This document shows positions 1-42,879 of a stretch of 42,879 nucleotides of DNA, piece by piece. This DNA comes from a virus, in UHGV virus genome UHGV-0301147; one strand, written 5' to 3'. Under the pieces are notes generated by a model. It made no database searches. It was not told the DNA's origin and saw only the letters and a list, made by a program, of their open reading frames with translations. The translations under genes and the position numbers were made by a program. The stretch's first letter is position 1. Each line of letters opens with the position of its first letter.

Positions 1-20
1 AAACCACCCGAAGGTGGTTT
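1..20 (-). terminator. Hairpin downstream of the tRNA 3' end (probable tRNA terminator; U-tract reaches the window edge)
   Basis: Perfect inverted repeat aaaccacc / ggtggttt with a 4-nt loop at 1-20, lying 3' of the minus-strand tRNA fragment. Confidence 0.4.
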
Positions 21-64
21 CACGACACTGCTTATTGCTTTGATTTTATTCTTATCTTTCCCAT

Positions 65-119
65 GGTACCCGGAGCGGGACTTGAACCCGCACAGCGCGA
101 ACGCCGAGGGATTTTAAAT
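65..119 (-). tRNA. Partial tRNA-Leu(UAA): anticodon loop through CCA end only; prophage attachment core
   Basis: Reverse complement reads ...ATTTAAAATCCCTCGGCGTTCGCGCTGTGCGGGTTCAAGTCCCGCTCCGGGTACCA: T-arm GCGGG-TTCAAGT-CCCGC, long variable arm, anticodon loop with TAA, CCA end; match to a tRNA stops at ~119 so the 5' half is absent. Confidence 0.7.
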
Positions 120-300
120 TGGTCGCTTTGTGCAATAAATTCAAATAATTATGGCAAATTATCCGGACATAATGGTGTGTATGAATATCAAATAATCATA
201 TAGTTACGACGCGTCTTACTCATCGTCTTCTGAAGGTTTTTGGCAAAAATGGTGATGTTCTGCGCCTTTATGTGACCAAACTGTCAGGAGCAAAGCGAGG

Positions 301-331
301 TAAAGGGGTATGAGAAAAACTCACATACCCC
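301..331 (-). terminator. Rho-independent terminator candidate after the left-end lipoprotein gene
   Basis: ggggtatg / catacccc 8-bp stem at 305-331 directly after the stop at 340-342, followed on the minus strand by TTTA. Confidence 0.45.
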
Positions 332-339
332 AACACAAA

Positions 340-759
340 TTAAAACGCGGTTGGGTGAATTCCATATTCACCGTTTGATCCATACCCTATGCGATACATC
401 AAAGTACGATCTGTTGTCACCTTGCCCGCTTGTTCGCTCATGCCACCACCACATACTCCTTTTGGCCACGCGCTGAAGACATGATCACCAATCGTTGGGT
501 ATACAACGACTTTCTGAGCTGTACCTAAATCTGCCACCTCTTTACCATCAACATAAACACGGGAAAAACACGCGCTTCCAAAGAAACCCGAGTCACGCTT
601 GATGATCACCTCTCCCGTACCGTCTCGTTTTTCGAGTAACGCGGTACTGATAATTTGTTTTTCAGGAACAGGAGTGGCTTGTTCATTTGAGACAGGTTTT
701 GTAGCACAACCGACAAGAGCAAGCATAATCCCACAGGCAAGACCATTTTTAACGACCAT
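340..759 (-). CDS. Putative lipoprotein (cargo gene at prophage left end)
   Basis: 139-aa ORF with signal peptide and lipobox (LVGC); sits between tail gene D and the att core; no family recognised. Confidence 0.55.
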   Translation of the reverse strand: MVVKNGLACGIMLALVGCATKPVSNEQATPVPEKQIISTALLEKRDGTGEVIIKRDSGFFGSACFSRVYVDGKEVADLGTAQKVVVYPTIGDHVFSAWPKGVCGGGMSEQAGKVTTDRTLMYRIGYGSNGEYGIHPTAF

Positions 760-22102: not shown

Positions 22103-22452
22103 TTCTTAGAAATTTGGCAATATACCAAATTAGCGTTAAATATGGCCTATTTTGTTCGGTTTTGCAAGCATTATACGCAAACGTCGTCTAAATGGTTTTG
22201 ATAATGATGCAAAGTTGCAAGAAGTGCCACTTCATCAAGTGCTCTCACCGCCTCTTTCATTCCTGCCCAGTGCGGGGAGTATGTTTCGCACCAGGTGGAA
22301 CGAGAAACAGACAACATTCCAGCTAGCGCAGATCCGGCCATCTCCTTAAAATCCTCGCGTTTATTTGATGCTGCGACCGCCTGCACGGACAACCACACCA
22401 ACGAAAGCAGGCGCTTAACTACTTTTCTCTGAGTTGACGCGGGGATGTTTCC

Positions 22453-22480
22453 TTTATAGCGACTCCAGACAGCCTAACAA
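22453..22480 (-). promoter_or_regulatory. pR'-like late promoter candidate immediately after the Q-like gene
   Basis: Minus strand TTGTTA - 16 nt - TATAAA overlapping the stop of the 22474-22842 gene. Confidence 0.35.
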
Positions 22481-22842
22481 ATAGCTGTTTGGTGTTTGAA
22501 TGCCAGGTTACCACCGTAGCAATAACGCAACCACGCTTGCTGACTTGCATCCAGCGAGTTCACAGAACGCCGCCAGGATGAATCAGCAAATTCAAAATCA
22601 CTCATCGGCGGCGCGGGGCGACGTCTGCTGAAACTTTCCAGAGCGTAAACTGGCGTAACCAGAGCATCAACGGTCCGGTCCTCCAGCTGCACACGGTGAA
22701 TATGTTTGCGTGGGTATGCGTTTTTGTCTGCCGGTGGGTGCTCACACAATGCTTCCAGTTGCCCCTTAGAACCACCAGACAAATCCCGCAATGCAGCGCG
22801 CAGTTTTATGCGGGTATATTCCAATAAATACTCGTTACTCAT
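22474..22842 (-). CDS. Putative late-gene antiterminator (Q-like); assignment is positional
   Basis: 122-aa ORF between the YbcO-like gene and the promoter/terminator/holin region; lacks the DxD motif of RusA. Confidence 0.4.
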   Translation of the reverse strand: MSNEYLLEYTRIKLRAALRDLSGGSKGQLEALCEHPPADKNAYPRKHIHRVQLEDRTVDALVTPVYALESFSRRRPAPPMSDFEFADSSWRRSVNSLDASQQAWLRYCYGGNLAFKHQTAIC

Positions 22843-41403: not shown

Positions 41404-41628
41404 ATGCTGCGATGGCAACCGGGAGCAACTCTGCTCTCCGCATTTGATATCAAAATTGGCCGACTCTCGGCCAGCGTCAGGAAACAGACTTTGACCGAGT
41501 CTGATATTGCCCGTGCCTGCAAGGCGGCAGATGACGCAATAAGCTACATAATGAGGAAAGACCATGAGAAGCGATCACGACATAATCACCAGAGAAGAAA
41601 TGGTCGAGCTGACGGGAAGCCCACTTAA
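41404..41628 (+). CDS. Hypothetical protein
   Basis: 74-aa ORF with SD GGAGGA; overlaps the next gene out of frame. Confidence 0.35.
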   Translation: MLRWQPGATLLSAFDIKIGRLSASVRKQTLTESDIARACKAADDAISYIMRKDHEKRSRHNHQRRNGRADGKPT

Positions 41629-41827
41629 ATCAAAGCAATGTGAGGCTCTTCGCCGGGCTGGAATTTTCTTCATGGAAAGGGCTGACGGGCACCCAAAAAC
41701 AACCTGGGGCCATTTCATGAACCCAATAAAATTTCGCAATTTACAGGAGGTGACGACGCGAAAAGATGATGAACCTGATTTTGGAGCAATATTTAATGGC
41801 CGGAAAGAGAAAGAACCCAGCAGATAA
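41564..41827 (+). CDS. Excisionase-like protein (DUF4224 family)
   Basis: 87-aa ORF immediately upstream of and overlapping the integrase gene; MVELTGSPLKSKQCEALRRAGIFFMERADGHPKTTW resembles DUF4224. Confidence 0.6.
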   Translation: MRSDHDIITREEMVELTGSPLKSKQCEALRRAGIFFMERADGHPKTTWGHFMNPIKFRNLQEVTTRKDDEPDFGAIFNGRKEKEPSR

Positions 41828-42812
41828 CTGGATGCCGCCTCGTGTTTACCAGGGCAAAGCGGCCTACGAATTCAGGAATAAAGATAACAAAGCGATACGC
41901 CTGTGCGCATTGGATGCGCCACGATCAGCCGTATGGCTGGCATATGAAAAAGCGGTCGGTGACGAAAAAGAAAGAAATACTTTTCAGGCGCTCGCGGAAC
42001 AATTCATGACCTCCCCTGATTTTATGGATTTGGCAGTCGAAACCAGGAAAGACTACACAAAATATTCCGGAAAAGTTCTGCCTGTCTTCGGGAAGATCGA
42101 CCCGGATAAAATCAAACCTGAACATATTCGGCGCTATATGGATCAACGCGGTTTATCAAGCCGAACTCAGGCAAACAGGGAAAAAAGCTTTATGTCCAGG
42201 GTATTCCGTTGGGGTTATGAACGAGGTTATGTCCAGAGGAATCCTTGTCAGGGAGTTAAGCAGTTTAAAGAGACAGCACGCGAACGTTATATTACGGATG
42301 AAGAATATCAGGCCGTTTATGAAGTATCTCCTGATGTTGTTCGCGTGGCAATGGAGATTGCCTACTTATGCGTGGCCAGACAGAGTGATGTACTTTCATT
42401 GCAGAAAGACCAGCTGTTCGATTCCGGGATCTACATTCGTCAGGGAAAAACCGGCGTTAAGCAAATCAAAGCCTGGTCGCCTCGTCTGCAGAAAGCGATA
42501 GCTCTGGCTCGTTCTCTACCATTAAAACCGGGAATCAGTAGCCTGTTTGTGATTCATCAAACTACCGGAGGCAAGTACACCCGTGATGGTTTTAACTCTC
42601 GTTGGCGTGATGTCAAAGCGGCAGCACAGGAAAAATATCCTCATCTGCAAATAGACTTCACATTTCATGATCTGAAAGCAAAAGGTATCTCTGATCTGGA
42701 AGGCAGCCTGGAAGAGAAGCAAGCAATTTCCGGGCATAAGAACCCACGACAGACAGCAGCATATGACCGAAAAGTTAAAGTAGTGCCCGTAGTTGGTGGC
42801 CAGAGAAAATGA
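41766..42812 (+). CDS. int: Tyrosine integrase (lambda Int family)
   Basis: 348-aa ORF at the prophage end; QGKTGVKQIKAWSP and C-terminal HDLKA ... Y resemble lambda Int; true start probably an internal Met. Confidence 0.9.
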   Translation: MMNLILEQYLMAGKRKNPADNWMPPRVYQGKAAYEFRNKDNKAIRLCALDAPRSAVWLAYEKAVGDEKERNTFQALAEQFMTSPDFMDLAVETRKDYTKYSGKVLPVFGKIDPDKIKPEHIRRYMDQRGLSSRTQANREKSFMSRVFRWGYERGYVQRNPCQGVKQFKETARERYITDEEYQAVYEVSPDVVRVAMEIAYLCVARQSDVLSLQKDQLFDSGIYIRQGKTGVKQIKAWSPRLQKAIALARSLPLKPGISSLFVIHQTTGGKYTRDGFNSRWRDVKAAAQEKYPHLQIDFTFHDLKAKGISDLEGSLEEKQAISGHKNPRQTAAYDRKVKVVPVVGGQRK

Positions 42813-42879
42813 ATGATGATGCGTCCAGAGAAAAATCATCTTCGGACGCATCTTCGGAAATGAAAAAGAAGATACAAAA

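What the first reader, a model, noticed from the sequence alone, without database searches (positions are those of the whole stretch)
1..340. Prophage left junction: partial tRNA-Leu core plus AT-rich arm
A 55-nt tRNA 3' segment with no 5' half marks the att core. The adjacent 120-300 region is AT-rich with direct and inverted repeats, as expected for integrase arm sites. The integrase is at the far (right) end and the matching core copy must lie just beyond the window.
Basis: partly seen in the sequence, partly recalled or inferred. Interest (0 to 1): 0.4.

Follow-up and report, generated by a model that had tools for sequence, protein, structure and literature searches.

The report
Prophage attachment junction at tRNA-Leu (leuZ)
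The left end of this window is a genuine, ordinary prophage–chromosome junction in the E. coli tRNA-Leu gene leuZ, and the duplicated piece also holds a complete copy of the small-RNA "sponge" that follows that tRNA.

Summary
Confirmed, and of a known kind. Window 64-119 (- strand) is the last 56 nt of E. coli leuZ, tRNA-Leu(UAA). No whole tRNA lies in the window.

The window is identical to E. coli MEI3O-23.

The direct repeat is 125 bp, not about 55. It holds 56 nt of tRNA, the 67-nt 3'ETS-leuZ sRNA with its terminator, and 2 more nt. It brackets a 42.9-kb prophage, and K-12 has a single copy as an exact empty site.

A related lysogen, 23GD11002, places the crossover in the 29 bp at the anticodon end. 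The int-side tRNA 3' part, 3'ETS and terminator are therefore phage-supplied, and window 1-119 is the displaced host copy.

Eleven diverged relatives share conserved blocks in the AT-rich arm. These are TCCGRACATA (162-171), TCTTCKGA (226-233) and an IHF-like ATCAA. They match a tandem CATCTTCGGA pair beside int (42837-42858). From this window alone the arm sites are not significant.

The integrase is lambda-Int-like, with a predicted N-terminal arm-binding fold. Excision itself is untested, and the prophage's Q gene carries a stop codon.

The parts
1..20 (-). Terminator hairpin of the glyW-cysT-leuZ operon / 3'ETS-leuZ (AAACCACC-CGAA-GGTGGTTT). Its T-run lies mostly just before window position 1.
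   Evidence: Inverted repeat I7, 8/8 complementary; folded stem; compensatory stem changes in relatives.
1..63 (-). Copy of the sRNA sponge 3'ETS-leuZ (63 of its 67 nt; the last 4 nt lie before window 1). It contains the RyhB/RybB-complementary segment at about 21-35.
   Evidence: K-12 annotation b4759 directly 3' of leuZ; 100% identity; duplex with RyhB and RybB; role as sponge per PMC13501541.
64..119 (-). 3' 56 nt of tRNA-Leu(UAA) leuZ, from anticodon loop to CCA, with no 5' half. This is the displaced host copy.
   Evidence: host-type alleles on this side in the related lysogen 23GD11002.
91..119 (.). Interval to which the strand exchange is confined. The 7-nt anticodon loop TTTTAAA (112-118) is the inferred overlap region.
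   Evidence: In 23GD11002 all phage alleles are on the int side and all host alleles on the yecA side. The nearest SNP is equivalent to window 90. The loop as overlap is an inference.
120..123 (.). TGGT, the first phage-specific bases. It was part of the retrieval pattern, so its conservation is not an independent result.
139..151 (+). IHF-like site ATTCAAATAATTA (12/13 match to WATCAANNNNTTR). The ATCA core is conserved in relatives, and several relatives match the consensus perfectly.
   Evidence: Alignment A3. No exact consensus match occurs in this region of the window, so this is inferred only.
162..171 (-). Arm-type integrase site, inverted orientation (TCCGGACATA; relatives have TCCGAACATA), 43 nt from the tRNA boundary.
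   Evidence: Nine of ten positions invariant in 11 diverged arms. Same position (+42) as the inverted arm motif of mEp390, ZF40 and Fostie.
129..199 (+). Two copies of a 24-nt direct repeat (129-152 and 176-199, 75% identical) flanking the inverted arm site. Role unknown; not conserved in relatives.
   Evidence: 1 of 200 shuffles as good.
202..207 (+). Conserved block AGTTAC (RNTTAC in relatives). Role unknown.
224..233 (+). Arm-type integrase site, direct orientation (CGTCTTCTGA; relatives have WATCTTCKGA), 105 nt from the tRNA boundary.
   Evidence: TCTTC-GA invariant in 11 arms. Same position (+104 to +106) as in mEp390 and ZF40.
305..331 (-). Hairpin downstream of the lipoprotein ORF. Probable terminator, not part of att.
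   Evidence: Inverted repeat I5.
340..759 (-). Lipoprotein cargo gene (139 aa), the last phage gene before the junction.
   Evidence: phrog_890 lipoprotein, E 2.5e-52; RefSeq hypothetical protein.
41564..41827 (+). Excisionase-like gene (DUF4224).
   Evidence: Pfam DUF4224, E 1e-14; phrog_1266 excisionase, E 9e-35.
41796..42812 (+). Tyrosine integrase, 338 aa, lambda-Int-like.
   Evidence: Pfam Phage_integrase and Phage_int_M; lambda Int is the best PDB match; 64% identical to the Int of mEp390, ZF40 and Fostie.
42837..42858 (+). Two tandem arm-type sites, CATCTTCGGA (42837-42846 and 42849-42858), in the int-proximal arm.
   Evidence: These are the only two exact copies in the window. The block is conserved in relatives with 82-100% identical Int while its flanks diverge.
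42874..42879 (.). First 6 nt (ACAAAA) of the second copy of the 125-bp repeat. The rest lies beyond the window.

Best explanation
Window 1-340 is one of the two junctions of a 42.9-kb temperate phage integrated by its tyrosine integrase into the anticodon-loop region of leuZ in E. coli.

The phage attP carries a 125-bp copy of host sequence: the 3' 56 nt of tRNA-Leu, the whole 3'ETS-leuZ spacer RNA and its terminator. Strand exchange takes place at the anticodon-loop end of that block. The operon glyW-cysT-leuZ then ends in a phage-supplied tRNA 3' part, spacer RNA and terminator next to int, just beyond the right end of the window. The original host copy is left as a promoterless orphan at window 1-119.

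The DNA at 120-240 is the int-distal arm of attP. It carries one inverted and one direct arm-type integrase site and an IHF-like site. Two tandem arm-type sites lie in the int-proximal arm at 42837-42858.

Shown: the repeat, the empty site, the intact tRNA, the crossover interval in a relative, and the conserved blocks. Inferred: the 7-bp overlap, protein binding at the blocks, and present-day excision competence.
For: - Exact identity to leuZ plus 3'ETS-leuZ, and a single-copy empty site in K-12.
- Intact tRNA-Leu, tRNA-Cys, tRNA-Gly and pgsA directly beyond int in the genome identical to the window, with yecA on the other side.
- The same prophage ends occur in about 430 of 5426 complete E. 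coli genomes.
- Three sequenced phages with 64% identical Int (mEp390, Fostie, ZF40) have the same layout in one piece: int, tandem repeats, terminator, spacer, tRNA 3' part, AT-rich arm. mEp390's record labels it attP.
- In lysogen 23GD11002 (Int 85% identical) the int-side tRNA, spacer and terminator carry more than 10 phage-type differences. The yecA-side copy is identical to K-12.
- Conserved blocks at fixed offsets occur in 11 diverged arms. They match the tandem motif beside int.
- The AlphaFold model (pLDDT 86.5) shows an N-terminal three-stranded sheet plus helix, then a linker. Its best structural matches are full-length lambda Int.
- An excisionase-like gene lies upstream of int.
Against: - There is no direct evidence that this prophage excises. 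No phage record or IMG/VR contig holds its attP in one piece.
- Its Q antiterminator has an internal stop codon, so it may not make particles.
- In this strain the two 125-bp copies are identical, so host and phage origin are assigned by analogy with a relative.
- The two arm sites in 120-240 each deviate from the family consensus. From the window alone, matches to the int-side motif are not significant (P about 0.15).
- Sequence methods do not detect the N-terminal domain.
Confidence: 0.9

Rival explanations
1. The phage enters and leaves by RecA-dependent homologous recombination across the 125-bp identity, and the integrase and arm sites play no part.
For: 125 bp of perfect identity between the two copies in this strain is long enough for some RecA-mediated exchange.
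Against: In 23GD11002 all differences segregate cleanly, phage type on the int side and host type on the other. That leaves only the 29 bp at the anticodon end for the exchange. In an IMG/VR contig with both ends held (L034 and L097), the part of the int-side copy that was recovered likewise carries phage-type alleles while the other copy is host-type. The family keeps int, an excisionase-like gene and conserved arm blocks.
Confidence: 0.04
2. The junction is a fossil. The prophage is defective and fixed in place, and the arm is no longer functional.
For: The Q antiterminator has an internal stop. No free-phage copy is found. The two arm sites differ by 1-2 nt from the family consensus.
Against: int and the excisionase-like gene are intact and full length. 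Both repeat copies are perfect. The gene set is otherwise complete. The element is present or absent among E. coli genomes at a precise site. Excision needs early genes only, not Q.
Confidence: 0.2
3. The AT-rich 120-300 stretch is only an intergenic or regulatory region for the neighbouring lipoprotein gene, and its repeats are incidental.
For: Inverted repeats there are at chance level and motif matches are not significant within the window. About 9% of windows of that size are as AT-rich.
Against: Relatives have entirely different neighbouring genes (holin and lysozyme in 23GD11002). They still keep the same blocks at the same distance from the tRNA boundary. The lipoprotein gene lies upstream on the - strand, so 120-300 is downstream of it, after its hairpin.
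Confidence: 0.05

Closest known systems
Phage lambda Int / attP (heterobivalent tyrosine integrase with core-type and arm-type sites, IHF and Xis)
   Same: Lambda Int is the best match by sequence and by predicted fold. The protein has a predicted N-terminal sheet-plus-helix domain followed by a linker. Short repeated motifs lie on both arms in both orientations, with an IHF-like site between the core and the nearest arm site. An excisionase-like gene overlaps the start of int.
   Different: Only about 18% sequence identity. The target is a tRNA gene, not attB between gal and bio. The int-proximal arm sites lie about 140 bp from the crossover, because the tRNA 3' part, spacer RNA and terminator sit in between. 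The arm motif (about WATSTTCKGA) is unrelated to lambda's. No binding has been tested.
attP of lambdoid phage mEp390, also Escherichia phage Fostie and Pectobacterium phage ZF40 (leuZ-type attP)
   Same: Int is 64% identical. The order is the same: int, tandem arm repeats, terminator, spacer, tRNA-Leu 3' part ending at GATTTTAAAT, AT-rich arm. The inverted motif is at +42 and the direct motif at +104 to +106. The mEp390 record annotates the site as a putative attP.
   Different: Each phage has its own arm motif (AATGGCGAA, TATTATGAA, ATATTAGGAA, against CATCTTCGGA here). Their host-derived block differs from E. coli's by about 10%, including a compensatory T-stem change, whereas this prophage's block is identical to E. 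coli. The rest of the genomes are unrelated: here lambdoid early and head genes with a P2-like contractile tail.
tRNA-gene integration at the anticodon loop, with attP carrying the tRNA 3' part (as described for P22, HP1 and others; Williams 2002, Nucleic Acids Res 30:866, cited from memory and not held in the paper library)
   Same: The identity block begins at the anticodon stem-loop and runs through the 3' end of the tRNA, so integration rebuilds an intact gene and leaves a 3' fragment at the far junction.
   Different: The block continues 69 nt past the tRNA, through a spacer that is itself a regulatory RNA (3'ETS-leuZ), and through the operon terminator. This holds in all 21 distinct copies examined in this integrase family.
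leuZ as a recurrent prophage site in Shiga-toxin-producing E. coli
   Same: leuZ is listed among shared prophage integration sites in O121:H19 strains (PMC8767318).
   Different: That paper catalogues occupancy only. It does not describe the att anatomy or the spacer RNA.

Membership tests
Prophage att junction in a tRNA gene | A partial tRNA copy at one end and an intact tRNA at the other, as direct repeats bracketing the element | tested here: met
   A 125-bp perfect direct repeat. The partial copy is at window 64-119, and the intact leuZ lies 64-150 nt beyond the window end.
Prophage att junction in a tRNA gene | An empty site with a single copy and the same flanks in genomes lacking the element | tested here: met
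   K-12 MG1655 has yecA, one copy, then leuZ-cysT-glyW-pgsA.
Prophage att junction in a tRNA gene | Phage genes, including an integrase, between the repeats | tested here: met
   RefSeq annotation lists 60 protein-coding genes between the repeats (two tRNA genes lie outside them). They include terminase, portal, capsid, tail sheath and tube, holin, CI/Cro and int.
Prophage att junction in a tRNA gene | Excision to a circle carrying attP and restoring attB | not testable with these tools
   No contig with the joined attP was found in the phage collection or IMG/VR. This needs PCR or read-level data.
Lambda-Int-like heterobivalent tyrosine integrase | Catalytic and core-binding domains of the tyrosine recombinase type | tested here: met
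   Pfam PF00589 and PF22022 score above their cut-offs. hhalign to lambda Int gives probability 97% over residues 59-323.
Lambda-Int-like heterobivalent tyrosine integrase | A separate N-terminal arm-binding domain (three-stranded sheet plus helix) joined by a linker | tested here: inconclusive
   The AlphaFold model from 77 sequences has strands at 17-19, 23-27 and 33-38, a helix at 43-54 and a low-confidence linker at 56-59. Its best Foldseek hits are full-length lambda Int with 354-363 aligned columns, against 275-292 for constructs lacking the N-domain. Sequence methods see nothing there. This is a prediction only.
Lambda-Int-like heterobivalent tyrosine integrase | Arm-type sites: a short motif repeated on both arms of attP and distinct from the core | tested here: met
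   CATCTTCGGA occurs twice at 42837-42858. Related conserved blocks lie at 162-171 (inverted) and 224-233 (direct), with positions shared with mEp390, ZF40 and Fostie. This is met at the level of sequence conservation; binding was not tested.
Lambda-Int-like heterobivalent tyrosine integrase | Int protein binds the arm sites, and IHF and Xis shape the complex | not testable with these tools
   Needs footprinting or gel-shift experiments.
3'ETS-leuZ sRNA sponge | Sequence identical to the annotated K-12 RNA, directly 3' of leuZ sequence and ending in the terminator | tested here: met
   Window 1-63 equals 63 of the 67 nt of b4759.
3'ETS-leuZ sRNA sponge | Released from the glyW-cysT-leuZ precursor and active against RyhB and RybB | not tested
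   The window copy has no operon promoter and follows a truncated tRNA. The only promoter-like match upstream is at chance level. Complementarity to RyhB (12-13 bp) and RybB (8 bp) is present.

The most novel reading that the evidence does not exclude
Phages of this integrase family do more than repair the tRNA they cut. They carry their own allele of the regulatory spacer RNA 3'ETS-leuZ and the operon terminator.

Lysogeny therefore (a) replaces the expressed host sponge with the phage's version. That version is diverged by about 10% in mEp390-, Fostie- and 23GD11002-type phages, but the RyhB/RybB-pairing segment is kept. Lysogeny also (b) leaves a second, orphan sponge copy that phage or chance promoters might express.

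If either effect changes sponge dose or affinity, lysogeny at leuZ would tune the noise-buffering of the iron (RyhB) and envelope-stress (RybB) sRNA circuits. For the prophage in this window the phage allele is identical to the host's, so only the orphan-copy effect could apply.
Probability: 0.12. Interest if true: 0.55.

Novelty: new member of a known kind. Interest (0 to 1): 0.25.

Why it matters
The main value is for annotation. It fixes the exact ends of a prophage found in about 8% of complete E. coli genomes. It gives the true length of the att repeat (125 bp) and the likely crossover interval. It also gives a testable map of integrase arm sites for an integrase family that is widespread in Enterobacterales.

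A smaller point of wider interest is that the duplicated block includes a known regulatory RNA, 3'ETS-leuZ. Lysogens at leuZ therefore carry two copies, and with some related phages they express a phage-derived allele. I found no paper that mentions this.

Tried and rejected
- Rfam scan of 1-600: no tRNA. The only hit was a chance-level RsaE match (E 0.72, 20 bits against a gathering score of 79) over the hairpin at 302-371. Rejected.
- Exact-pattern scan of IMG/VR and megablast of the phage collection for the joined attP: nothing in one piece. The four vB_EcoM records are prophage cut-outs that include host flank.
- Exact IHF consensus search: no match in 1-340, and the window total is at chance. 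The IHF-like site rests only on conservation.
- Promoter and terminator consensus scans of 1-1000: at or below chance.
- Motif matches to CATCTTCGGA within 120-340 alone: not significant. The case rests on comparison with relatives.
- Single-sequence AlphaFold run: unusable, pLDDT 39. Repeated with a 77-sequence alignment.
- hhalign and BLASTP of the N-terminal 60 residues against lambda Int: no convincing alignment.
- L051, L014, L066 and L089 first looked like joined attP sites. The sequence after the tRNA fragment belongs to something else, in L014 and L066 a second element with a reverse-oriented integrase. They were not used for the arm comparison.
- Full-length RNA duplex energies for the spacer against RybB are not clearly better than shuffles. 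Only the short continuous helices are cited.

Full report
**1. What is at 1-340**

Window 64-119, read on the - strand, is the last 56 nt of E. coli tRNA-Leu(UAA), gene leuZ. It runs from the last base of the 5' strand of the anticodon stem to the terminal CCA (K-12 annotation; three-way alignment). ARAGORN finds no complete tRNA anywhere in the window, and Rfam finds no tRNA in 1-600.

It is 63 of the 67 nt of the annotated small RNA 3'ETS-leuZ (b4759), including the terminator hairpin at 1-20. This RNA is the processed 3' spacer of the glyW-cysT-leuZ transcript. It is described as a sponge for the sRNAs RyhB and RybB (Lalaouna et al. 2015, as cited in PMC13501541; see also bioRxiv 10.1101/2025.09.11.675593).

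**2. The predicted second copy exists**

The window is 100% identical to E. coli MEI3O-23 (NZ_CM149569.1, 2109733-2152611, reverse strand). Both ends match, and the distance between them fits exactly.

- Reading on past the window's right end gives the intact tRNA-Leu 64-150 nt beyond it. It is followed by tRNA-Cys, tRNA-Gly, pgsA and uvrC.
- To the left of the window lies yecA.

The direct repeat is 125 bp and perfect. It runs from 6 nt before window 1 to window 119, and again from window 42874 (62 nt after the int stop) to 119 nt beyond the window. It consists of 56 nt of tRNA, the 67-nt spacer RNA and 2 more nt.

K-12 has yecA, one copy, then the rest of leuZ. That is an exact empty site. 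Circularised, the window is thus one phage genome with one attP.

Between the repeats RefSeq annotates a complete-looking temperate phage. It has CI/Cro, a replication helicase, holins, terminase, portal, capsid, a P2-type contractile tail, an excisionase-like DUF4224 protein and a tyrosine integrase. About 430 of 5426 complete E. coli genomes carry the same two ends.

**3. Where the exchange happens, and which copy is which**

In MEI3O-23 the two copies are identical, so a relative was used.

E. coli 23GD11002 carries a prophage whose Int is 85% identical, with the same int-side repeats.
- Its int-side leuZ has the host 5' half but a phage-type 3' part. That part shows a compensatory T-stem change (GCGGG/CCCGC to GTGGG/CCCAC), a diverged spacer and a different terminator loop.
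- The copy on its yecA side is identical to K-12 over all 125 bp.

Two further cases fit.
- The int-side tRNA of 2017C-4173W12 likewise carries the phage-type T-stem pair.
- In one IMG/VR contig with both ends held (L034/L097), the recovered part of the int-side copy carries phage-type alleles and the other copy is host-type.

The exchange is thus confined to the 29 bp equivalent to window 91-119. That the 7-nt anticodon loop TTTTAAA (112-118) is the overlap region is my inference. It rests on the stem arms flanking the loop and on what is known of anticodon-loop integrases (Williams 2002, from memory).

Two consequences follow. The tRNA 3' part, spacer RNA and terminator that the operon now uses are phage-supplied. 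Window 1-119 is the displaced host original.

**4. The arm**

GC content:

| Region | GC |
|---|---|
| Whole window | 48.4% |
| 120-300 | 38.7% |
| 120-200 | 29.6% |

- **Within the window alone:** one 24-nt direct repeat (129-152 and 176-199) beats 199 of 200 shuffles. Inverted repeats do not beat chance. Matches to the int-side motif are not significant. The sequence alone therefore does not prove arm sites.
- **Related phages:** mEp390, Fostie and ZF40 have Int 64% identical. Each has 2-4 tandem copies of its own 9-10-nt motif between int and the terminator. Each also has an inverted copy 42 nt past the tRNA boundary. mEp390 and ZF40 also have a direct copy at +104 to +106.
- **This phage:** the int-side motif is CATCTTCGGA, present twice at 42837-42858. 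These are the only exact copies in the window. The block is conserved in relatives while its flanks diverge.
- **Retrieval of further arms:** I searched IMG/VR with only the tRNA anchor plus TGGT. With 23GD11002 this gave 11 distinct arms, otherwise heavily diverged. The family consensus for the arm-type site is roughly WATSTTCKGA.

The 11 arms share invariant blocks:

| Conserved block | Window position |
|---|---|
| ATCA(A), IHF-like | about 140-144 |
| TCCGRACATA | 162-171 |
| RNTTAC | 202-207 |
| TCTTCKGA | 226-233 |

The second and fourth blocks are an inverted and a direct version of the int-side motif. They sit at the offsets seen in the three phages.

**5. The integrase**

- Pfam finds the catalytic and central domains.
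- Lambda Int is the closest solved structure by sequence and by profile comparison, over residues 59-323.
- The first 58 residues match no family.
- An AlphaFold model built on 77 homologues has mean pLDDT 86.5. It gives three strands and a helix at 17-54, followed by a flexible linker.
- Its best Foldseek matches are full-length lambda Int chains. These align over about 70 more columns than the N-terminally truncated constructs.

This fits an arm-binding domain, but it is a prediction.

**6. Comparison with what is known**

This is the standard lambda-type attP logic applied to a tRNA target of the anticodon-loop class.
- leuZ is a recognised prophage site (PMC8767318).
- mEp390's record already labels its homologous site as attP.
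- The family is widespread in Enterobacterales.

I therefore file the finding as a new member of a known kind.

One feature may not have been remarked before. The host-derived block always extends through the spacer RNA and terminator, in all 21 distinct copies examined. In most copies the segment complementary to RyhB and RybB (ACGACACTGCTTAT in window orientation) is kept while neighbouring bases vary. That may reflect selection, or simply recent copying from hosts. These data cannot separate the two. Two full-text searches found no paper linking 3'ETS-leuZ with phage integration.

**7. Limits**

- Excision was not shown. No joined attP for this phage exists in the collections searched.
- The Q antiterminator carries an internal stop, so the prophage may be unable to complete lytic growth even if it excises.
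- Protein binding at the proposed sites is inferred.

Noticed in passing
window 1-63 (- strand): A near-complete second copy of the sRNA sponge 3'ETS-leuZ sits at the junction, behind a truncated tRNA and without the operon promoter. All 21 distinct int-side copies in this integrase family carry the spacer and terminator as well as the tRNA part.
   Followed up: partly
window 22171-22842 (- strand): The phage antiterminator Q homologue has an in-frame stop at codon 123 and is annotated as a pseudogene in RefSeq. The prophage may be unable to express late genes.
   Followed up: partly
L008 2570-2656; L009 2636-2722; L004 2486-2606: Phage-borne tRNA-Leu 3' parts carry a compensatory double change in the T-stem (GCGGG/CCCGC to GTGGG/CCCAC). 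Lysogens of those phages therefore express a chimeric but still base-paired tRNA-Leu.
   Followed up: partly
L014, L019, L066, L089 (downstream of int, after the tRNA fragment): In some contigs the tRNA fragment next to int is followed by other DNA rather than the tRNA 5' half. In L014 and L066 this is a second element with a reverse-oriented integrase, and its boundary is one base different (GATTTTAAAA). This indicates tandem occupancy of leuZ. E. coli genomes hold up to 4 copies of the block.
   Followed up: partly
window 158-185 (- strand): A promoter-like match (TTCATA, 16 nt, GATAAT) points towards the orphan tRNA fragment and 3'ETS copy. The count of such matches in the region is at chance level.
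   Followed up: no
window 340-759 (- strand): A 139-aa lipoprotein gene (phrog_890) with its own hairpin (305-331) is the last gene before the junction. This is a typical position for phage cargo genes. Function unknown.
   Followed up: partly
window 42820-42852: The inverted repeat GATGCGTCC / GGACGCATC overlaps the first arm-type site and the start of the second, and is partly conserved in relatives. It could be the int terminator or a further inverted partial arm site. Unresolved.
   Followed up: no
window 129-152 and 176-199: A 24-nt direct repeat (75% identical, better than 199 of 200 shuffles) flanks the inverted arm site but is absent from relatives' arms. Role unknown.
   Followed up: partly
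L005 (Escherichia phage 520873, NC_049344.1) 1-2039: This 'phage genome' record starts with the host gene yecA and the leuZ fragment, followed by a split integrase. It is a prophage cut-out with host flank, from a different (P2-like) element at the same site.
   Followed up: no
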